The notes under the pieces: generated by a model
Database searches by the model: none
What the model was told of the DNA's origin: nothing
What the model saw: only the letters and a program-made list of their open reading frames with translations
Program-made: the position numbers and the translations under genes
Virus record (IMG/VR): IMGVR_UViG_3300029214_000123
Reading direction: 5' to 3' (one strand)
Length of the DNA: 21,450 bases
Source of the DNA: a virus
Taxonomy: Duplodnaviria > Heunggongvirae > Uroviricota > Caudoviricetes
Part shown: piece after piece, positions 3,602 through 21,450 of the stretch
Position numbering within the stretch: position 1 is the first letter of the stretch
Layout of the letters: each line of letters begins with the position of its first letter

Positions 3602-3935
3602 GAAAAATCCCCCAGAGAATTGTCTGGGGACATTTTAGAATGGTTCAAAGGGGACATTACAGCTTGGTGTTAACAATAGCCTGCTTCTCCTTGCCTTTCG
3701 GCACGTAAGAGGCTAACCTACATGTGTCTGGCATGAAATTGGCCTCAGATTAATGTTAAGCGTCTTGCAGGACGCGTAATGTTAACTGGGGCTTTTCTCT
3801 ACCTGCCGTTGGTGTTCGTGCCCGAGGCAGATAGCCTCAAGCACCCGCAGTCATTCTACTTAACTAAGATTTCCCCGCAAACCGTTTTTGTCCAGCACAG
3901 TAAATATCCAACTAAACCAATGGAGTTCGCTGTAT

Positions 3936-9294: not shown

Positions 9295-9352
9295 TTTCTG
9301 GTGACGTTTGGCGGTATCAGTTTTACTCCGTGACTGCTCTGCCGCCCTTTTT
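9295..9352 (+). ncRNA. dicF: DicF small RNA (antisense inhibitor of ftsZ translation) with intrinsic terminator
   Basis: tttctggtgacgtttggcggtatcagttttactccgtgactgctctgccgccc followed by ttttt matches DicF as I recall it; GC hairpin plus T-run at the 3' end. Confidence 0.85.
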
Positions 9353-9376
9353 AAAGTGAATTTTGTGATGCGGTGA

Positions 9377-9649
9377 ATGCGGCTAAGCGCACGCGGAACA
9401 GTTAAAACCAAAAACAGTGTTATGGGTGGATTCTCTGTATCCGAAGAGCAGTTAATTGCGCTGAAAGGAATAAAAAAAGGTACGTTAAAAAAGGCCCGGG
9501 AAAAATCGTTTATGGAAGGAAGGGAATATAAGCATGTCGCTCATGACGGTATGCCATGGGATAACAGTCCATGCTTTTACAACCTGGAAGAAATTGATCG
9601 CTGGATTGAGCGCCAGGCATCAGCAAGACCAAGACGTCATCTTACTTGA
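9377..9649 (+). CDS. Putative excisionase (lambda Xis-like); start codon uncertain
   Basis: ORF immediately upstream of int; segment EGREYKHVAHDGMPWD resembles the lambda Xis DGREYLFHESAVKVD region. No clear SD at any candidate start (9377, 9422, 9512). K-12 has dicB at this position, and no DicB-like protein is present here. Confidence 0.45.
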   Translation: MRLSARGTVKTKNSVMGGFSVSEEQLIALKGIKKGTLKKAREKSFMEGREYKHVAHDGMPWDNSPCFYNLEEIDRWIERQASARPRRHLT

Positions 9650-9683
9650 CTAAAAGCCACACTAACTAATGAGAGAAGTTGAA

Positions 9684-10964
9684 ATGAAATATCCGACAGG
9701 CGTGGAAAACCATGGAGGGAAATTACGTATCTGGTTTGTTTATAAAGGCGTAAGAGTCAGGGAAAACCTGGGGGTTCCTGACACAGCAAAAAACAGGCGC
9801 GTTGCAGGTGAGCTACGCGCCTCTGTTTGTTACGCAATAAAAACTGGTGTTTTCGACTATGCAAAACAGTTTCCCTCCTCACGCAATCTGGAAAAATTTG
9901 GTGAGACTCGACAAGATTTAACCATAAAAGAACTGGCTGAAAAATTTCTGGCACTGAAAGAAACTGAAGTCGCAAAAACATCACTCAACACATACCGTGC
10001 CGTCATCAAAAATATCCTGAGCATAATCGGTGAAAAAAATCTTGCCTCATCGATTAATAAAGAAAAATTACTGGAGGTTCGTAAAGAGCTACTGACTGGA
10101 TACCAGATCCCCAAAAGTAACTATATTGTTACACAACCAGGGAGATCGGCTGTAACTGTAAATAATTACATGACAAATCTTAACGCCGTGTTCCAGTTTG
10201 GTGTTGATAACGGTTACCTGGCAGATAACCCGTTTAAGGGGATCTCGCCATTAAAGGAATCAAGAACCATTCCGGATCCTCTTTCGCGGGAGGAATTCAT
10301 CCGTCTTATCGATGCGTGCAGAAATCAGCAAGCCAAAAATTTATGGTGTGTTTCTGTTTATACTGGCGTTCGCCCTGGTGAGCTGTGTGCACTTGGATGG
10401 GAGGACATAGATCTGAAAAATGGAACAATGATGATCAGGAGAAATTTAGCAAAAGACCGTTTCACGGTACCAAAAACACAGGCGGGAACCAATCGGGTCA
10501 TTCATCTTATTAAGCCAGCAATCGACGCTCTCCGGAGTCAGATGACATTAACGAGACTGAGCAAAGAGCATATCATTGATGTTCACCTCAGAGAGTATGG
10601 CAGAACAGAAAAACATAAATGCACCTTTGTTTTTCAACCTGAAGTGTCAGCGAGAGTAAAAAATTATGGTGACCATTTTACCGTTGACTCAATAAGGCAG
10701 ATGTGGGACGCAGCGATAAAACGTGCCGGACTCCGCCATCGAAAATCATATCAGTCGAGACATACTTATGCCTGCTGGTCGCTGACAGCTGGTGCTAATC
10801 CGGCATTTATAGCAAACCAGATGGGCCATGCAGATGCGCAAATGGTATTTCAGGTATACGGAAAATGGATGTCTGAAAACAATAATGCACAGGTAGCTTT
10901 GTTAAATACACAGTTAAGCGAGTTTGCCCCAACCATGCCCCATAACGAAGCAATGAAAAATTAA
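9684..10964 (+). CDS. Phage integrase (tyrosine recombinase), apparently intact
   Basis: 426-aa reading from the ATG at 9684 (track ORF 9669) with a C-terminal catalytic region carrying conserved R...HxxR...Y residues (...RHTYACW..., ...VYGKWM); last prophage gene before the chromosomal rspB. Confidence 0.85.
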   Translation: MKYPTGVENHGGKLRIWFVYKGVRVRENLGVPDTAKNRRVAGELRASVCYAIKTGVFDYAKQFPSSRNLEKFGETRQDLTIKELAEKFLALKETEVAKTSLNTYRAVIKNILSIIGEKNLASSINKEKLLEVRKELLTGYQIPKSNYIVTQPGRSAVTVNNYMTNLNAVFQFGVDNGYLADNPFKGISPLKESRTIPDPLSREEFIRLIDACRNQQAKNLWCVSVYTGVRPGELCALGWEDIDLKNGTMMIRRNLAKDRFTVPKTQAGTNRVIHLIKPAIDALRSQMTLTRLSKEHIIDVHLREYGRTEKHKCTFVFQPEVSARVKNYGDHFTVDSIRQMWDAAIKRAGLRHRKSYQSRHTYACWSLTAGANPAFIANQMGHADAQMVFQVYGKWMSENNNAQVALLNTQLSEFAPTMPHNEAMKN

Positions 10965-16324: not shown

Positions 16325-17734
16325 ATGTCCAAAAATGACCGAATGGTGGGCATCAGCCGCAGAACACTCGTTAAATCAACCGCGATAGGTTCTCTGGCGC
16401 TGGCTGCAGGCGGTTTTTCTTTACCGTTCACCCTGCGCAGTGCAGCGGCAGCGGTACAACAGGCCAGCGAAAAAGTGATCTGGGGTGCCTGTTCCGTCAA
16501 CTGTGGTAGCCGCTGTGCACTTCGTCTACATGTTAAAGATAATGAAGTCACCTGGGTGGAAACTGACAACACCGGCAGCGACGAGTATGGCAATCATCAA
16601 GTACGCGCCTGTTTGCGTGGTCGATCCATCCGCCGGCGTATTAATCATCCCGATCGCTTGAATTACCCAATGAAACGCGTGGGTACACGCGGTGAAGGCA
16701 AATTCGAACGGATTAGCTGGGATGAAGCCCTGGATACTATCGCCAGTAGCCTGAAAAAAACCGTCGAACAATATGGCAATGAGGCTGTATATATTCAGTA
16801 CTCTTCGGGGATTGTTGGCGGCAATATGACCCGCTCTTCGCCATCAGCCTCGGCGGTCAAACGCCTGATGAACTGCTACGGCGGTTCACTCAATCAGTAT
16901 GGCTCCTACAGCACCGCGCAAATTTCCTGTGCCATGCCCTACACCTACGGCAGTAATGATGGCAACAGCACCACGGATATTGAAAACAGCAAGCTGGTCG
17001 TGATGTTTGGTAACAACCCGGCAGAAACCCGCATGAGCGGCGGTGGCATCACTTATCTTCTTGAAAAAGCGCGCGAGAAATCGAACGCCAAAATGATTGT
17101 TATCGATCCGCGATATACCGATACGGCTGCCGGTCGTGAAGACGAATGGCTCCCTATTCGCCCGGGCACCGATGCCGCGCTGGTTGCGGGTATTGCCTGG
17201 GTATTGATTAACGAAAATCTCGTTGATCAACCTTTTCTCGATAAATACTGCGTCGGCTATGACGAAAAAACCTTACCCGCAGATGCACCCAAAAATGGTC
17301 ACTATAAAGCCTATATTCTTGGTGAAGGTGACGATAAAACAGCGAAAACGCCGCAGTGGGCTTCGCAAATTACCGGTATCCCGGAGGACCGTATCATCAA
17401 ACTGGCGCGTGAAATTGGCACAGCAAAACCCGCTTATATCTGCCAGGGCTGGGGGCCGCAACGCCAGGCAAACGGCGAACTGACTGCACGCGCTATTGCT
17501 ATGTTACCTATTTTGACGGGCAATGTCGGCATCAGCGGCGGAAATAGTGGCGCGCGTGAATCGACCTATACCATTACCATAGAACGCCTGCCGGTGCTGG
17601 ATAATCCGGTCAAAACGTCAATCTCCTGCTTCAGCTGGACAGATGCTATCGATCATGGTCCGCAAATGACGGCAATCCGCGACGGCGTCCGCGGCAAAGA
17701 TAAACTGGATGTGCCCATTAAGTTCATCTGGAAC
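16325..17734 (+). pseudogene. ynfE: ynfE 5' fragment (Tat-exported DMSO/selenate reductase-family molybdoenzyme catalytic subunit), cut after codon ~470 by foreign DNA
   Basis: Tat signal (SRRTLVKSTAIGSLALAAG), 4Fe-4S Cys motif (CSVNCGSRCALR), YnfE/DmsA-like sequence up to ...DVPIKFIWN. The remaining ORF tail (FKDLKRTLSRPEVLH, stop at 17782) does not continue as YnfE/DmsA, and the full protein should be roughly 800 aa. Confidence 0.85.
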
Positions 17735-17790
17735 TTCAAGGACTTGAAGCGGACCCTTAGTAGGCCTGAGGTCCTGCATTGAGTCAAGGA

Positions 17791-17824
17791 CTTTGTGTCA
17801 GGCTTTGTGTCAGCCTTGTGTCAT
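17791..17824. repeat. Three tandem copies of an ~11-bp repeat (ctttgtgtcag variants) in the foreign-segment terminal region
   Basis: ctttgtgtcagg / ctttgtgtcagc / cttgtgtcat in direct tandem; followed by a tagacgg ... tagacgg direct repeat (17825-17844). Confidence 0.6.
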
Positions 17825-17976
17825 TAGACGGGATGTCTAGACGGCTGGTCAGGACCCCCGGTGGCCTCGGTCTGGACTTGAGGCGGGGCTATGGGGGGAA
17901 GTCTGCTGGCTTAATGTATTAGATGGTCATTCACATTTTTCTGTCAGAAACCATCGGTCCCACTGTGAGTCCAAAC

Positions 17977-18132
17977 CTAAGGACCTAGAAGTCCACCCAC
18001 AGCCTTAGACAGAGTGTCGAACACATCCACACCGAGTCGACCAGAGAGGACCATATAGAGACCCACAGAGAGGAACACGAGTTTATAGACCAGAGTCAGG
18101 AGGGACCTTAGGTCTGCGGAAGTCATAGACAT
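17977..18132 (-). CDS. Small (51 aa) membrane protein, holin-like or phage small membrane protein; missed by the ORF track (<60 aa)
   Basis: Hand translation MSMTSADLRSLLTLVYKLVFLSVGLYMVLSGRLGVDVFDTLSKAVGGLLGP; strong SD GAAGGAGG 5 nt upstream of the ATG at 18132; one predicted TM helix; same strand as the neighbouring phage-like genes. Confidence 0.55.
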   Translation of the reverse strand: MSMTSADLRSLLTLVYKLVFLSVGLYMVLSGRLGVDVFDTLSKAVGGLLGP

Positions 18133-18276
18133 TGGGTCCTCCTTCGCCTGTATACTACCATACCAGTAATAAGGCCCAGACCATTGGTCCAGACCATAGT
18201 TAGTTAATCACAGTGATAGCCCACCACCTGAAGTCCTGCTGATATTCAGTCCAGACTTACCTCTTACCCATTGGTC

Positions 18277-19266
18277 TTACGCTTCGGTCTTGGTGAACTT
18301 CAGGCGTTTGACTACAGGCAGGACGGCAGTAGCTGAGCCAGTGCCCATCTTGACGGTCGTAGCAGCTTCAGCGACAACGAACACTTTACCGAGGATTTCC
18401 AGAGAGTGAGACTGAGAGTCACCATCACGGGACAGGACCACCGTAATGTTTTCGCCATCGTGGCGGAAGCAACCGAAGCTCAGAGCCGTAAAACGCTTAG
18501 CCATCATGAACACGCCACGGTCTTCACCGTTGTAATACGCAATATCAGTCCCCAGCATATCGACGATAGCGTCTTCACCACCGAAGCCCTGCTTAGCAGC
18601 CAGACGGGAGAGAGCCTTGAGGTGTGACTCATGGGCGATGATACCGTAATCAGTAACCTCAGAACCGAAAGAAGATTCGGTGTTGTCATACAGAGCGTCC
18701 ATGATAGTGTCTGCCTTAGCGGTCAGGCTGCCAGTCAGGACCGGAAGCTCTACGGTCTTCAACAGTTTGGAGGACTCCAGAACGTCAACCATGCGAGCGT
18801 TGATGGTACGGACCACATTCTCACAGATGTTCATAGCGTCCTGCTGAAGTGTGCCCTGAGTGAATCCGGTGGATGACTTGGCGTCCCAGAGCTTGGTCTG
18901 CTCAGAGATGAGAATAGCCTGCTCGATTGGTTCGACCACGATTTCTTGTCCAGACGGAACGGTCACGACTTCAGGTCGCTTACCACCACGGACAGGAACG
19001 ACCACAGAGCGATCAGCCAGAGTGTGAGCAATGATTGGAGTAGGCAGGCTATTGCGGGTCGGCAGGACTTCTACAGGGAACGGGATGTTATCTTGAGCGT
19101 CTTTAAGTACACCGTTCAGCATAGCCTTAACAGTCTTAGCTAACTGGAGGGCATAGACCTGAGGGTCGGCGTTAGTCGGAAGGCCCTCATTAACCTGAAG
19201 GTTGTCGTTGTCGGTGATATGAACAGGCTCAATGCCAAACTGGAAAGCGTTTTTAGTCATATTCAT
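18277..19266 (-). CDS. Phage-like abundant structural protein, tentatively a major capsid protein (329 aa)
   Basis: Long ORF with strongly biased high-expression codon usage (CTG, GGT, CGT, GCT, ATC, GAC). Translation initiation region CAAGGAGATTAATTATA-ATG resembles the T7 gene 10 RBS (AAGGAGATATACAT-ATG). 9-bp hairpin immediately upstream. Few Cys, Ala/Val/Thr/Gly-rich. The capsid assignment is inference, not a recognised homolog. Confidence 0.45.
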   Translation of the reverse strand: MNMTKNAFQFGIEPVHITDNDNLQVNEGLPTNADPQVYALQLAKTVKAMLNGVLKDAQDNIPFPVEVLPTRNSLPTPIIAHTLADRSVVVPVRGGKRPEVVTVPSGQEIVVEPIEQAILISEQTKLWDAKSSTGFTQGTLQQDAMNICENVVRTINARMVDVLESSKLLKTVELPVLTGSLTAKADTIMDALYDNTESSFGSEVTDYGIIAHESHLKALSRLAAKQGFGGEDAIVDMLGTDIAYYNGEDRGVFMMAKRFTALSFGCFRHDGENITVVLSRDGDSQSHSLEILGKVFVVAEAATTVKMGTGSATAVLPVVKRLKFTKTEA

Positions 19267-19349: not shown

Positions 19350-19841
19350 TTACAGGCTGTCCATCCAGTTACCGCCTGACTCAATGTCAGCGACGATAGC
19401 GGCACGGGAGCGACCAGCGGAATGGGTAGCACTGCGGAGGTTCTCACCATAGGTCCGGCGTTCAGCTTTGACCTGTTCGCGGCGCTGTAGCTCTTTCTGC
19501 CACTCTGCATCAGTCATGTTCTCTTCACGCATACGCTCAGCCTGAATGCGCTGCTCTTTAGCAATACGCTCAGCTTCGGCTCGCTTGTTCTGCTGGCGGC
19601 GACCATAGGCGGTCATCAGGTCATTACTGAAGAAGTTGCCAATGGTCACGCCAGCTTCAGCCAGAGCTTCCAGTAACTCCATCGCCTCGCGGCTGGTGGA
19701 CGGTAAGCCTGACAGGTAGCCCGGAATCAGGGTCTTAATCGCCAGAGACAGCGGATAGGACTGACCGTCCAGACTCACAGTATTTTCATAGGGATTGATG
19801 TCGGTGACTGATAGTTTCCAGTCGTTGTTGTTGAATAACAT
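19350..19841 (-). CDS. Phage-like protein (163 aa) with a charged coiled-coil C-terminal half, scaffolding-like
   Basis: ORF with SD AGGAGTACTACCTT-ATG; C-terminal half RRQQNKRAEAERIAKEQRIQAERMREENMTDAEWQKELQRREQVKAERR is Arg/Glu/Gln-rich helical; immediately precedes the capsid-like gene. The scaffold role is inference. Confidence 0.4.
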   Translation of the reverse strand: MLFNNNDWKLSVTDINPYENTVSLDGQSYPLSLAIKTLIPGYLSGLPSTSREAMELLEALAEAGVTIGNFFSNDLMTAYGRRQQNKRAEAERIAKEQRIQAERMREENMTDAEWQKELQRREQVKAERRTYGENLRSATHSAGRSRAAIVADIESGGNWMDSL

Positions 19842-20055: not shown

Positions 20056-20157
20056 TCATCTTNNNNNNNNNNGACCAAGCTCTCTGAGGAGGACTTCAGT
20101 CCGGTAGCCACGGTAACGGAGAGTCATGCGACCCTCAGGTGTGCGCGGGTCAATCAT
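20056..20157 (-). CDS. Possible small basic protein (~33 aa) translationally coupled to the upstream 237-aa gene; spans an N-run
   Basis: ATG at 20157-20155 is preceded by GGAGGG (8 nt upstream) lying in the last codons of the upstream gene; translation MIDPRTPEGRMTLRYRGYRTEVLLRELG... The length depends on the true size of the 10-N gap. Confidence 0.2.
   Translation of the reverse strand: MIDPRTPEGRMTLRYRGYRTEVLLRELGXXXXR
20063..20072. other. Run of 10 N inside the foreign segment
   Basis: Literal n characters. Confidence 1.
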
Positions 20158-20158
20158 C

Positions 20159-20872
20159 TTAGAGTCCCTCCAGCTTGCCGGATTGGGCCTGCTTCAGGAG
20201 GTGCTCTTGCTTCTGCTGGTCGGTGCCAGTGAAGGCAATAAGGATGCCTCGCATCTTGTCAACCATCTCAGGCTTACCGAAGACCTCCAGTCCCTTAGCA
20301 TTGAACCGGAAGTTATAACCACCTGCTGAGAACTTCTGGTCTGACGGCTTAATGATACGAAAGCAGTCGGAATACTTCGGATTTACAGACCACTCGTTAC
20401 TGATTGGATTCTTACGAAAGAGACCACGATGCTGAAGAAGTGCGGTCATTAGCTTCTGAGCGGGTAGACCATAGGTTTTGCAGTAGTCGCCCCAAGTCAC
20501 GCCTCGACGGTTAGCGGACTGAATTGATGCTCGCTTCTTCTGGTCTTCCAGTAACTGCTTGTCCTTCTCAATTCGTCGGATGTATTCAAGGACTTTGCGA
20601 CGCACAGCTTTAGACTCACGCATACCGACTAGTAACAATTGGTCTCCGGTCAGCGTGATTGATTCCATCTGACGACCACCGCCTGTAGGTGTAATCAGAA
20701 CGGTCGCAAAAGTTTTGCAATCGTCCAGCTCATCGCGGACACGGGCTAAGAATTGGTCATTACGGACCGGAGCCTCGCCAGCTTCTGAACGAGCAGGATT
20801 GATAACAGTCGTCAGAAACTCATAGGAAGGCATAGAGAATTCATTGTTAAAGATGACTACTTGTTGAGACAT
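20159..20872 (-). CDS. Phage-like protein of unknown function (237 aa); possibly regulatory/antirepressor-like (weak)
   Basis: Long ORF with SD AAAAGGAGTACAACGAT-ATG, the same AGGAGTAC-type initiation region as the 163-aa gene; codon usage like the neighbouring genes. The segment ESITLTGDQLLLVGMRESKAVRRKVLEYI vaguely recalls Rha/antirepressor-type proteins, which I cannot verify. Confidence 0.5.
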   Translation of the reverse strand: MSQQVVIFNNEFSMPSYEFLTTVINPARSEAGEAPVRNDQFLARVRDELDDCKTFATVLITPTGGGRQMESITLTGDQLLLVGMRESKAVRRKVLEYIRRIEKDKQLLEDQKKRASIQSANRRGVTWGDYCKTYGLPAQKLMTALLQHRGLFRKNPISNEWSVNPKYSDCFRIIKPSDQKFSAGGYNFRFNAKGLEVFGKPEMVDKMRGILIAFTGTDQQKQEHLLKQAQSGKLEGL

Positions 20873-21450
20873 ATCGTTGTACTCCTTTTGTTATGTCTCC
20901 TGAAGTCACACCCTGAAAGCCTACTCAAGCCCCCAACGATAGGGAGACTCACAGGCAACAGGAGACATACAGAAAGACTTGAGGATTGATGAGGTCGTGT
21001 GAAGACCAGAGATGACCATAGCGGCTAATAAAAGGAAATTTTCCTCTTTTGAGGACTGCTCAGTTTTGAGCGCGTTAAGTTCTTCGACCATAGAGACGAA
21101 GGTTGCAGGCCGCATGTCAGGACGAGCTGTAAGGACCCCAGATGGTGAGCGGTGATAGACTTAAGCCAATGTAGTGAGTAGACGAGCTACTAACTGAGAT
21201 GACTGAAGAACGCTAACGAGCTGGAGGTCGATACACGAGGTCTGACAGGGGCGGTCTTCCTACCAGTGATAGTTAAGTCTCTACACTGGTCATACATACC
21301 CAACCTCAAGCAACGACCCAATGTATACAGGGTCCCGATGCTTTGAGCTGGAGACTGACGGAGCTATCGTCGACCCCATGGTTGAGGAAGACACATAGAA
21401 GGAATGAGGTCTGACTTAAGTCTGGACTATAGGTCTTATATTAATCTTCA

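What the first reader, a model, noticed from the sequence alone, without database searches (positions are those of the whole stretch)
17735..17976. Repeat-rich non-coding terminus resembling T7-group genome ends, abutting host DNA
These 242 bp have no plausible ORF but are full of short reiterated motifs: three tandem ~11-bp repeats (17791-17824), tagacgg direct repeats, a gaccattggtc-type palindrome nearby, and on the minus strand CTCACAGTG (17961-17969) and CCCCCCATAGCCCC. These recall the TCTCACAGTG start and CCCCCATAG motifs of T7/T3 terminal repeats. If 17961-17969 marks the start of a terminal repeat, about 235 bp would separate it from the host junction, a T3-like repeat length. A physical linear-genome end joined directly to ynfE would suggest either a chimeric assembly or an unusual end-mediated integration.
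Basis: partly seen in the sequence, partly recalled or inferred. Interest (0 to 1): 0.7.

Follow-up and report, generated by a model that had tools for sequence, protein, structure and literature searches.

The report
Integrated satellite mimicking T7-like phage ends
The repeat-rich stretch is one end of a 6.5-kb mobile island in the E. coli gene ynfE that copies the promoters and genome-end cutting site of T7-like phages and encodes its own capsid protein, so it is most likely an undescribed parasite ("satellite") of these well-studied virulent phages.

Summary
Window 17725-17735 is the att core (CATCTGGAACT) of a ~6.5-kb integrase-borne island in ynfE. The junction occurs in 152 complete E. 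coli genomes and the island in 312 of 5426, so it is not a chimera or a physical DNA end. The 11-bp tandem repeats recur beside the integrase gene at the far end, so they are probably integrase arm sites. A 115-nt block (17867-17981, minus strand) is the only non-coding sequence conserved across all lineages. A profile built from satellites alone hits the 40-kb Kayfunavirus IMM-002 genome once (E=1.5e-8), exactly across the start of its terminal repeat. The phage CA|TCTCACAG aligns with CA|TCTAATACA (17915-17923), not with CTCACAGTG. The islands also carry Kayfunavirus-type phage RNA-polymerase promoters co-oriented with their genes. They encode an HK97-fold capsid protein under purifying selection and keep a size of 6.3-6.8 kb. 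Distant relatives keep this architecture with other promoter types. Best reading: a new family of capsid-encoding satellites of T7-like phages. Helper dependence is inferred, not shown. No description was found in the literature searched.

The parts
16325..17735 (+). 5' part of host gene ynfE, truncated by the insertion
   Evidence: 97% identical to E. coli ynfE and annotated as a partial DMSO/selenate reductase A subunit in relatives. The ORF runs into the element and stops at 17782.
17725..17735 (.). att core CATCTGGAACT (attL); boundary between host and element
   Evidence: The same 11-mer flanks the element 6,496 bp away in L001 and 6,321-6,764 bp away in other copies. The two ynfE halves rejoin in frame across it.
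17777..17787 (-). Core-proximal repeat TTGACTCAATG (element strand), also present on the other side of the core
   Evidence: Repeat family D5 in L001 has copies near both ends. The motif is conserved in L014, L018 and L058. Its function is unknown; it could be an integrase or accessory-protein site, or a -35-like element.
17791..17823 (-). Three tandem 11-bp repeats (CTGACACAAAG on the element strand): candidate integrase arm-type binding sites
   Evidence: Tandem Repeats Finder: period 11, 2.9 copies. An identical 20-mer lies next to the integrase gene at the far end in L001 (D10). GACACAAGG repeats lie on both sides of the core in L058. Subfamily B, with a different integrase, has TGTAACC repeats on both sides instead.
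17826..17845 (.). Two TAGACGG direct repeats
   Evidence: Read directly from the sequence. Conserved in subfamily A copies. Function not determined.
17867..17981 (-). Concatemer-junction-like block. The predicted left-end cleavage position lies between 17924 and 17923 (CCA|TCTAATACA), and CCCCCCATAG lies 28 nt downstream.
   Evidence: It is colinear with the right-unique/terminal-repeat boundary of Kayfunavirus and other T7-like phages. A satellite-only profile hits the phage junctions with E from 1.5e-8 to 2.4e-11. It is the only non-coding similarity between subfamilies A and B. It is also present in distant islands L056 and L058.
17977..18132 (-). Small ORF of 51 aa, hydrophobic, with a GAAGGAGGA ribosome-binding site
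   Evidence: Translation. A comparable small hydrophobic ORF occurs at this position in other lineages. Its position mirrors gene 19.5 of T7-like phages, just before the right repeat.
18173..18195 (-). Terminator-like hairpin (GGTCTGGACC AAT GGTCTGGGCC) downstream of the capsid gene
   Evidence: The equivalent site in L001 was called terminator-like, with 10 pairs followed by a T-run. The T-run is weaker in the window copy.
18277..19266 (-). HK97-fold major capsid protein gene (329 aa)
   Evidence: AlphaFold2 model with pLDDT 83 and pTM 0.79. Foldseek gave 196 PDB hits at E<=1e-3, the top hits all phage capsids or encapsulins, probability 1.0. dN/dS is 0.08-0.2 and the gene is intact in 11 copies. 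No Pfam or PHROG match.
19350..19841 (-). 163-aa charged, helical protein: scaffold candidate (inferred)
   Evidence: A 155-165-aa gene lies immediately upstream of the capsid gene in every lineage. Only sub-threshold family hits were found.
20159..20872 (-). 237-aa Rha/ANT-like protein
   Evidence: Weak match to the ANT/KilAC domain. Relatives are annotated as Rha family or KilA-N proteins.
20921..21115 (-). 64-aa ORF of unknown function
   Evidence: Listed; no family match.
21257..21279 (-). Kayfunavirus-type phage RNA-polymerase promoter-like site with a degenerate core (GACTTAACTATCACTGGTAGGAA)
   Evidence: It scores 17.6-18.5 bits against a matrix of IMM-002 promoters. It resembles the IMM-002 promoter at 39305 beyond the core. 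Stronger sites (24-37 bits) lie further upstream in relatives, beyond the window end.

Best explanation
The finding is the attL end of a ~6.5-kb integrative element that is most likely a satellite of T7-like (Kayfunavirus-type) virulent podophages.

Shown by computation:
- A tyrosine integrase inserted the element into ynfE at an 11-bp core, and the 11-bp tandem repeats behave like arm-type integrase sites.
- Between the capsid gene and att lies a conserved copy of the helper-type concatemer junction: about 37 nt of right-unique sequence followed by the first ~55 nt of the terminal repeat.
- The element's genes are preceded by promoters that match the helper phage's own single-subunit RNA polymerase promoters.
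- The element encodes an HK97-fold capsid protein.

Inferred mechanism:
1. The element is silent until a matching T7-like phage infects the cell and supplies its RNA polymerase, which transcribes the element.
2. The element excises to a circle. There the junction block, attP and a right-boundary/ATCTGTA pause-like motif would together form a ~320-bp terminal-repeat equivalent.
3. The phage machinery replicates the circle from phage-promoter origins, as it does T7 phagemids.
4. The helper terminase cuts at CCA|TCTAATACA and packages the DNA. Packaging could be as unit-length genomes into small shells built from the element's own capsid and scaffold proteins on helper portal and tail parts, or as ~6-mers in helper-size heads.
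5. After injection, the integrase gene is the first gene behind the entering end and reinserts the element.
For: Integration:
- The same junction is present in 152 complete E. coli genomes and the element in 312 of 5426.
- An 11-bp direct repeat flanks the element and an integrase with the Phage_integrase domain lies at the far end.
- Arm repeats lie on both sides of the core and co-vary with integrase type.
- Subfamily B sits at tRNA-Gly(CCC).

Junction mimic:
- Alignments are colinear with the phage junctions.
- A satellite-only profile gives one significant hit in the whole IMM-002 genome, at the repeat start (E=1.5e-8), and hits four other T7-like phages at the same place.
- The block is the only non-coding sequence conserved between subfamilies.
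- It is retained in islands whose capsid protein is only 36-44% identical.
- Weak blastn hits in a 2.3-Gb phage database fall almost only in Autographiviridae termini.

Promoters:
- 26 of 27 matrix hits in 298 kb lie 1.9-3.8 kb upstream of the capsid gene on the coding strand.
- One site is identical over 23 nt to an IMM-002 promoter, and another shares 26 nt including flanks.
- Other lineages carry other phage-promoter types.

Other links to the phage group:
- An exact 28-32-nt hairpin is shared with the gene 19-19.5 spacer of Kayfunavirus.
- An HNH gene is 48% identical to the one next to the phiYIO1-1 terminase gene.

Capsid.

Size: 6.32-6.76 kb in 9 copies of three lineages despite mosaic gene content.

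Precedent: T7 replicates, packages and transduces circular plasmids that carry a T7 origin, a pac site and a terminal repeat (PMC13236587, citing Chung & Hinkle 1990).
Against: - There is no direct evidence of excision, replication, packaging or transfer.
- No free, circular or virion-derived copy was found. The IMG/VR hits are integrated copies, and element-sized contigs were chromosomal fragments.
- No database phage carries the satellite-type TCTAATA junction, so terminase recognition is unproven.
- The right-boundary/ATCTGTA motif is statistically marginal (E 0.07-0.09 in subfamily A, 2.5 in L058). It was not convincingly found in subfamily B and lies inside the annotated 5' end of the integrase ORF.
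- The only promoter site visible in the window itself has a degenerate core (GGTAGG instead of ATAGGG).
- The capsid protein shows no sequence similarity to the helper-type capsid, so compatibility with helper portal and tail is conjecture.
- No excisionase or replication gene was recognised.
Confidence: 0.7

Rival explanations
1. The element is an anti-phage defence or decoy island that is not itself transferred. Helper-type promoters would act as infection sensors switching on toxic or interfering genes. The junction copy would titrate or misdirect the phage terminase, and the capsid-like protein would poison phage head assembly.
For: Phage-polymerase promoters make expression strictly infection-dependent. 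The accessory genes are variable (Rha/ANT-like, KilA-N, HNH, orphans). Known satellites commonly interfere with their helpers (background knowledge, not tested here).
Against: No PADLOC defence family matched apart from a homing-endonuclease model. The tightly conserved element size, the integrase, the spread across genera with 92-95% identical capsid genes and the purifying selection on a complete HK97-fold protein all fit a packaged mobile genome better. The two readings are not exclusive.
Confidence: 0.15
2. The element is the decayed remnant of a temperate T7-like prophage that kept its integrase, capsid gene and genome-end region by chance.
For: Some T7-like phages carry integrases (for example LUZ100, PMC10134795). 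The promoters and end sequences are of Autographiviridae type.
Against: The same compact 6.3-6.8-kb architecture recurs in three or more deeply diverged lineages, at three or more integration sites and in several genera. ORFs are intact and capsid dN/dS is 0.08-0.2. No RNA polymerase, DNA polymerase, portal, tail or terminase remnants were found. The capsid is not the T7-type capsid at the sequence level.
Confidence: 0.07
3. This is the first reader's view: a physical linear phage genome end fused directly to ynfE through mis-assembly or an end-mediated integration event.
For: There is T7-like end vocabulary next to host DNA, and the window contains a 10-N gap elsewhere in the element.
Against: An identical junction is present in 152 independent complete genomes. 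An att core duplication and an integrase are present. The homologous cleavage position is 189 bp inside the element.
Confidence: 0.01

Closest known systems
T7 phagemids / transducing plasmids (Chung & Hinkle 1990; used in PMC13236587)
   Same: A small circular DNA carrying phage-polymerase promoter/origin sequences plus the concatemer junction (pac site and terminal repeat) is replicated, packaged and transduced by T7. The element carries natural counterparts of these cis elements.
   Different: Phagemids are laboratory constructs. This is a natural, integrase-borne chromosomal element with its own capsid gene. Its junction has TCTAATA instead of TCTCACAG.
Capsid-forming PICIs (cf-PICIs)
   Same: Both are integrated satellites of Enterobacteria that encode their own HK97-fold capsid protein rather than only remodelling the helper's capsid.
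   Different: cf-PICIs encode capsid, portal, protease, head-tail adaptors, HNH and terminases, and take only tails from the helper (definition as given in PMC13230959). This element is half their size and has only the capsid plus a scaffold candidate, with no portal, protease or terminase. Its capsid matches no Pfam capsid family. Its wiring uses helper RNA-polymerase promoters.
PICMIs (phage-inducible chromosomal minimalist islands, Vibrionaceae; PMC10803314)
   Same: Both are very small (~6 kb) integrative satellites of virulent phages with a minimal gene set.
   Different: According to that abstract, PICMIs encode no capsid-remodelling genes and package their DNA as a concatemer. This element encodes a capsid protein, occurs in Enterobacteriaceae, and mimics T7-type promoters and genome ends.
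PLE of Vibrio cholerae (helper ICP1)
   Same: Both are satellites of a strictly virulent phage that are activated only on infection and depend on helper replication and packaging.
   Different: PLE is ~18 kb, with its own replication initiator and capsid-remodelling factor and a different helper family. It is not known to use helper-polymerase promoters or a terminal-repeat mimic.
Direct terminal repeats / concatemer junction of Studiervirinae (T7, T3, K1F-like Kayfunavirus)
   Same: The block GACGATGAGTTTTG..AAAA.T.TGAG..CA|TCT.A.A...CCCCATAG is shared in the same order and spacing. A candidate ..CTCTG.GTC.C.T|ATCTGTA right boundary is also present.
   Different: There is a single internal copy rather than a duplicated terminal repeat. 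The first bases are TCTAATA rather than TCTCAC/TAG. The repeat-equivalent is interrupted by attP and integrase arm sites.

Membership tests
Autographiviridae genome terminus (direct terminal repeat of a linear phage genome) | The sequence is homologous to the terminal repeat / concatemer junction | tested here: met
   A satellite-only profile hits the repeat start of IMM-002, PE3-1, BHUENT8, JA10 and N30 (E from 1.5e-8 to 2.4e-11). The alignments are colinear.
Autographiviridae genome terminus (direct terminal repeat of a linear phage genome) | The same repeat is present at both ends of the genome | tested here: not met
   No long direct repeat links the two ends of the full element in L001; only 11-22-mers are shared.
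Autographiviridae genome terminus (direct terminal repeat of a linear phage genome) | It belongs to a genome encoding a single-subunit RNA polymerase, T7-type replication genes, portal, tail and terminase | tested here: not met
   Pfam and PHROG scans of all element ORFs find only an integrase, an HNH and weak ANT hits. tblastn of element proteins against IMM-002 gives nothing.
Site-specific integrative element (tyrosine recombinase type) | A tyrosine integrase gene lies at one end | tested here: met
   PF00589 at E=1.7e-13 and phrog_1 at E=7e-42. The gene lies outside the window, in relatives L001 and L012.
Site-specific integrative element (tyrosine recombinase type) | Short direct repeats (att core) flank the insert, and empty sites exist in related genomes | tested here: met
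   The 11-bp CATCTGGAACT flanks the insert. The ynfE region matches 5314 genomes, of which only 152 carry the junction. ynfE is listed as a gene interrupted by an integrative element in PMC7192596.
Phage satellite (generic) | It lacks a full set of virion, packaging and lysis genes | tested here: met
Phage satellite (generic) | It carries cis or trans elements that redirect a specific helper's machinery | tested here: met
   Helper-type promoters, the junction mimic and the shared hairpin. These are sequence-level results only.
Phage satellite (generic) | Induction, packaging and transfer depend on a helper phage | not testable with these tools
   This needs infection experiments. No virion-derived copy was found in the IMG/VR or phage collections.
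cf-PICI | It encodes capsid plus portal, protease, head-tail adaptors and terminases | tested here: not met
   Only the capsid protein is present (by fold), plus a scaffold candidate.
PICMI | Minimal island without capsid genes, found in Vibrionaceae and packaged as a concatemer | tested here: not met
   It encodes an HK97-fold capsid protein and its hosts are Enterobacteriaceae. The packaging form is unknown.
HK97-fold major capsid proteins | HK97 fold | tested here: met
   Foldseek probability 1.0 to phi29, T5, PhiM1, Kp9 and other capsids and to encapsulins. TM-scores are only 0.3-0.45. A distant relative has a C-terminal Big_2 Ig-like domain.
HK97-fold major capsid proteins | It assembles into an icosahedral shell that holds DNA | not testable with these tools
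   This needs expression and electron microscopy.

The most novel reading that the evidence does not exclude
T7-like virulent coliphages, among the best-studied viruses, have a widespread and so far unrecognised family of 6.5-kb chromosomal satellites, present in about 6% of complete E. coli genomes and in several Enterobacteriaceae genera. These would be transcribed by the helper's own single-subunit RNA polymerase from lineage-matched promoters. They would be cut and packaged at a mimic of the helper's concatemer junction whose repeat-equivalent spans attP. They would build their own small HK97-fold capsid on helper portal and tail parts.
Probability: 0.55. Interest if true: 0.9.

Novelty: new variant of a known kind. 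Interest (0 to 1): 0.8.

Why it matters
No satellite of a T7-like phage turned up in nine full-text searches covering PMC and bioRxiv to mid-2026.

- **A new wiring principle.** If confirmed, this would add a satellite that borrows the helper's private RNA polymerase through matched promoters and copies its genome-end processing site. It would do so with one of the smallest gene sets that still includes a capsid gene.
- **Practical relevance.** T7-like phages are used in phage therapy (including K1F-type phages), phage display and directed evolution. About 6% of sequenced E. coli would carry an element able to interfere with them or be mobilised by them.
- **A natural experiment on T7 packaging.** The conserved block pinpoints which bases around the T7-type cleavage site are under selection. 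What the T7 terminase recognises is an old and incompletely answered question.
- **Host phenotype.** The insertion splits ynfE, linking a selenate/DMSO-reductase paralogue to a mobile element.

Tried and rejected
1. Megablast of the element against 50,697 phage records gave no match, so this is not a known phage fragment.
2. Smith-Waterman alignment of the non-coding end to the IMM-002 junction was no better than shuffles. It was superseded by the multi-phage and profile comparisons.
3. Two collection scans used a mis-spaced pattern (7 or 5 N instead of 6). The corrected viral scan re-found only the four integrated IMG/VR copies.
4. Contigs of 6.4-7.3 kb carrying the capsid gene looked like free forms but were chromosomal fragments.
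5. The 7.4-kb faecal virome record MT837217 shares a 20-mer by chance and is unrelated. PQ520054 is a mislabelled fragment of a T7-like phage.
6. The first AlphaFold run on a shallow alignment failed (pLDDT 36). It succeeded only after adding distant homologues.
7. Comparing the capsid family profile with the T7-type capsid and with PDB sequences gave no sequence-level relation.
8. PADLOC found no defence system, and Rfam found no known RNA in the element.
9. A sigma-70 promoter and terminator scan was no better than shuffles. The three 83-bp TTGACA repeats in L001 could not be assigned as early promoters.
10. The right-boundary motif is marginal in subfamily A and not credible in subfamily B, where the hit lies mid-integrase.
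11. DNA-level similarity between the L012 HNH region and phiYIO1-1 was not found.

Full report
**1. The observation**

The listed motifs are all present.
- The 11-bp tandem array is at 17791-17823, with 2.9 copies.
- TAGACGG occurs twice.
- CTCACAGTG lies on the minus strand at 17961-17969.
- CCCCCATAG lies on the minus strand at 17889-17897.

The two 'T7-like' 9-mers are not significant alone: they appear in 17 and 9 of 100 shuffles. The range 17735-17976 has no ORF, but a 51-aa hydrophobic ORF with a strong ribosome-binding site ends at 17977.

**2. What the host junction is**

The 3-kb stretch across the junction is present in 152 complete E. coli genomes, and the inserted DNA in 312 of 5426. 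In a full copy (L001, strain 30EVA1) the insert splits ynfE and is flanked by the 11-bp direct repeat CATCTGGAACT, 6,496 bp apart. A tyrosine integrase gene sits at the far end, and all genes are on the minus strand. In the window the core is 17725-17735. This excludes a chimeric assembly or a physical DNA end. ynfE has been listed as a gene interrupted by an integrative element (PMC7192596), but that paper's main text does not characterise the element further.

**3. The tandem repeats**

The 20-mer TTTGTGTCAGCCTTGTGTCA recurs, identical, beside the integrase gene at the other end. A distant relative (L058) has GACACAAGG repeats on both sides of its own core. Subfamily B has a different integrase and target, tRNA-Gly(CCC), and carries TGTAACC repeats on both sides instead. 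Repeats that flank the core on both arms and co-vary with the integrase are what arm-type integrase sites look like. This is an inference from the λ-type paradigm.

**4. The T7-like resemblance is real but differently anchored**

Sensitive blastn against 2.3 Gb of phage DNA gave only weak hits. Nearly all were in 38-41-kb Autographiviridae, and mostly in unannotated DNA near the record ends. Local alignments are colinear with the concatemer junction of PE3-1, BHUENT8, JA10 and N30.

Every copy of the element keeps one block:

CGATGAGTTTTGAC.GAAAAATGTGAG…CA|TCTAATA…(27-28 nt)…CCCCATAG

The Kayfunavirus equivalent is:

GACGATGAGTTTTGGACCAAAAGTTYGAGA…CA|TCTCACAGTTCAAG…CCCCATAG

A profile built only from 11 satellite blocks finds a single significant hit in the entire 40,060-bp IMM-002 genome. 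It lies at 39835-39924 (E=1.5e-8), straddling the start of the 189-bp right terminal repeat at 39872. The profile hits the same place in four other phages (E from 2.4e-11 to 2.7e-6). Between subfamilies A and B this block is the only significant similarity in the whole non-coding stretch.

The phage left end aligns with TCTAATACA (window 17915-17923), 189 bp from the att core.

**5. The rest of the element points to the same phage group**

*Promoters.* IMM-002 has about 13 promoters with the consensus CT(A/T)AACTATCACTATAGG(G/A)A. A matrix of these was scanned over 16 loci (298 kb) and gave 27 hits of at least 14 bits. Twenty-six of them lie 1.9-3.8 kb upstream of the 329-aa gene on the coding strand. 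One is identical over 23 nt to an IMM-002 promoter, and another shares 26 nt including flanks. The window shows one such site (21257-21279) with a degenerate core; the stronger sites lie beyond the window end.

*Other shared sequence.* A 28-32-nt hairpin (GGAGGGTGATAATAATCATAATCCCTCC) is identical to one in the spacer between genes 19 and 19.5 of Kayfunavirus phages. The HNH gene of the window's closest relative is 48% identical to the HNH next to the phiYIO1-1 terminase gene.

**6. The 329-aa protein is a capsid protein**

It has no Pfam or PHROG match and only close homologues in the indexed search. An exhaustive phmmer search found full-length relatives at 21-44% identity. With these, AlphaFold2 gave pLDDT 83 and pTM 0.79. 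Foldseek returned 196 PDB hits at E<=1e-3, and the top hits are all HK97-fold capsids or encapsulins. The gene is intact in 11 copies, with dN/dS of 0.08-0.2. A 155-165-aa charged helical protein always precedes it, which makes it a scaffold candidate by position, as in the T7 gene 9-10 order. That assignment is an inference.

**7. Family properties**

The element occurs in Escherichia, Shigella (two copies at two sites in one genome), Citrobacter, Leclercia, Enterobacter, Buttiauxella and Rouxiella. Att-to-att length is 6,321-6,764 bp in nine copies from three lineages. Two copies are about 7.6-7.7 kb, and at least one of them carries an IS insertion.

Islands with capsids only 44% and 36% identical (L056, L058) keep the same order: integrase, small genes, 155-165-aa gene, capsid gene, junction block, att. 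They use other phage-type promoters: ATTTAAGGAAGGTACACTATAGGGAGAGA in L056 and CTAAACCCCGACTATAGAGAG in L058. A Buttiauxella copy has a T3-like site. Constant architecture with lineage-specific promoter specificity argues for adaptation to different T7-like helpers.

**8. A repeat-equivalent that spans attP (suggestive only)**

Reconstructing the excised circle shows, 126 nt beyond the core on the integrase side in subfamily A, TTCTCTGGGTCTCCCT|ATCTGTATC. L058 has GCCTCT|ATCTGTAAG at +93. These resemble the right boundary of the phage repeats, which is followed by the ATCTGT(T/A) motif:
- IMM-002: CCTCTGAGTCTCT|ATCTGTATC
- PE3-1: TTCTCTGAGTCTCT|ATCTGTAAT
- JA10: CTCTCTGTGTCCCT|ATCTGTTAG

[quoted passage not shown] The implied repeat-equivalent is 321-358 bp and would be split by integration. 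On this reading the window holds its left ~190 bp.

The statistics are marginal: E is 0.07-0.09 over 207 kb in subfamily A and weaker elsewhere. Subfamily B has no convincing counterpart, and the motif lies inside the annotated 5' end of the integrase ORF.

**9. Mechanism**

T7 replicates, packages and transduces circular plasmids that carry a T7 origin, a pac site and a terminal repeat (PMC13236587, citing Chung & Hinkle 1990). The element carries natural counterparts of these cis elements, plus an integrase and a capsid gene. The most likely reading is a satellite that works as follows:
- it is transcribed by the helper's RNA polymerase;
- it excises and is replicated by the helper machinery;
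- it is cut at CCA|TCTAATACA and packaged.

Its own capsid gene and constant 6.5-kb size suggest small dedicated capsids. Six units would also roughly equal one helper genome, so multimer packaging is not excluded. In the circle the integrase gene is the first gene behind the predicted entering end.

None of these steps is shown. No free or virion-derived copy was found, and no database phage has a TCTAATA-type end.

**10. Rivals**

They are weighed in the rival section. The last is refuted.

**11. Novelty**

Nine completed full-text searches found no description of such an element. They combined satellite, T7-like, Kayfunavirus, Autographiviridae, helper, capsid-forming and ynfE. The element fails the gene-content definitions of cf-PICI and PICMI. 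I rate it a new variant (a new family) of a known kind, the phage satellite. The limits of the searched library and the absence of experimental evidence both apply.

Noticed in passing
window 20063-20072: A run of 10 N interrupts a small ORF inside the element (homologue of the 74-aa ORF of L001). It is probably a scaffold gap or a masked stretch in the source assembly.
   Followed up: no
window 17977-18132 (minus): A 51-aa hydrophobic ORF with a GAAGGAGGA ribosome-binding site lies just upstream of the junction block. This is the position gene 19.5 occupies in T7-like phages. Other lineages have a different small hydrophobic ORF at the same place (MDLHKVYLVVFLLKL…).
   Followed up: partly
L001 25865-26064 (outside the window; between the integrase and the first promoter): Three ~83-bp tandem repeats lie here. 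Each has TTGACAT, an AT-rich TTTATAT segment and, on the opposite strand, GACTCACAG(G/T)T, which resembles the phage left-end sequence TCTCACAGTT. They could be an origin, iterons or early-promoter mimics, but remain unassigned.
   Followed up: partly
L001 26166-26197; IMM-002 39437-39464; phiYIO1-1 40046-40077: An exact 28-32-nt hairpin (GGAGGG-16 nt-CCCTCC) is shared between the element and the gene 19-19.5 spacer of Kayfunavirus phages. L058 has a similar hairpin (GAGGGTGATTGTAATCAATAACAACCCTC). Its function is unknown.
   Followed up: partly
L001 27611-27856 / L012 equivalent (5' end of the annotated integrase ORF): The first ~82 codons of the 525-aa integrase annotation overlap arm repeats and the ATCTGTA motif. 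Distant relatives have 429-444-aa integrases. The true start may therefore be the downstream ATGCGTCAGAGAGAG.
   Followed up: no
window 3675-3846 and 9296-10964: The left part of the window is a Qin-like cryptic prophage remnant. It has the sok antitoxin RNA (3675-3846, minus strand), DicF RNA (9296-9347), an excisionase (9377-9649) and an integrase (9669-10964). It is followed by rspB, rspA and ynfA-D.
   Followed up: partly
L022 5788-7020; L056 4009-6321: In several copies, IS elements (IS3 and IS66 family) have inserted at or next to the phage-type promoters. In L022 the insertion truncates a promoter (GACTAAACTATCACTAT|GAAG…). This may reflect inactivation of the element.
   Followed up: no
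L023 7024: A Buttiauxella copy carries AATTAAACCTCACTATAGGGAC, which is closer to the T3 promoter type as I recall it than to the Kayfunavirus type. This hints at promoter swapping between helper specificities.
   Followed up: no
PQ520054.1 (L007) and OR786095.1: Two records labelled Enterococcus phage IME_EF3 (partial, unverified) and Staphylococcus phage MBBL139 carry T7-like coliphage-type junction sequence. The first matches Enterobacter phage BHUENT8 identically over the aligned stretch. They look mislabelled or contaminated.
   Followed up: no
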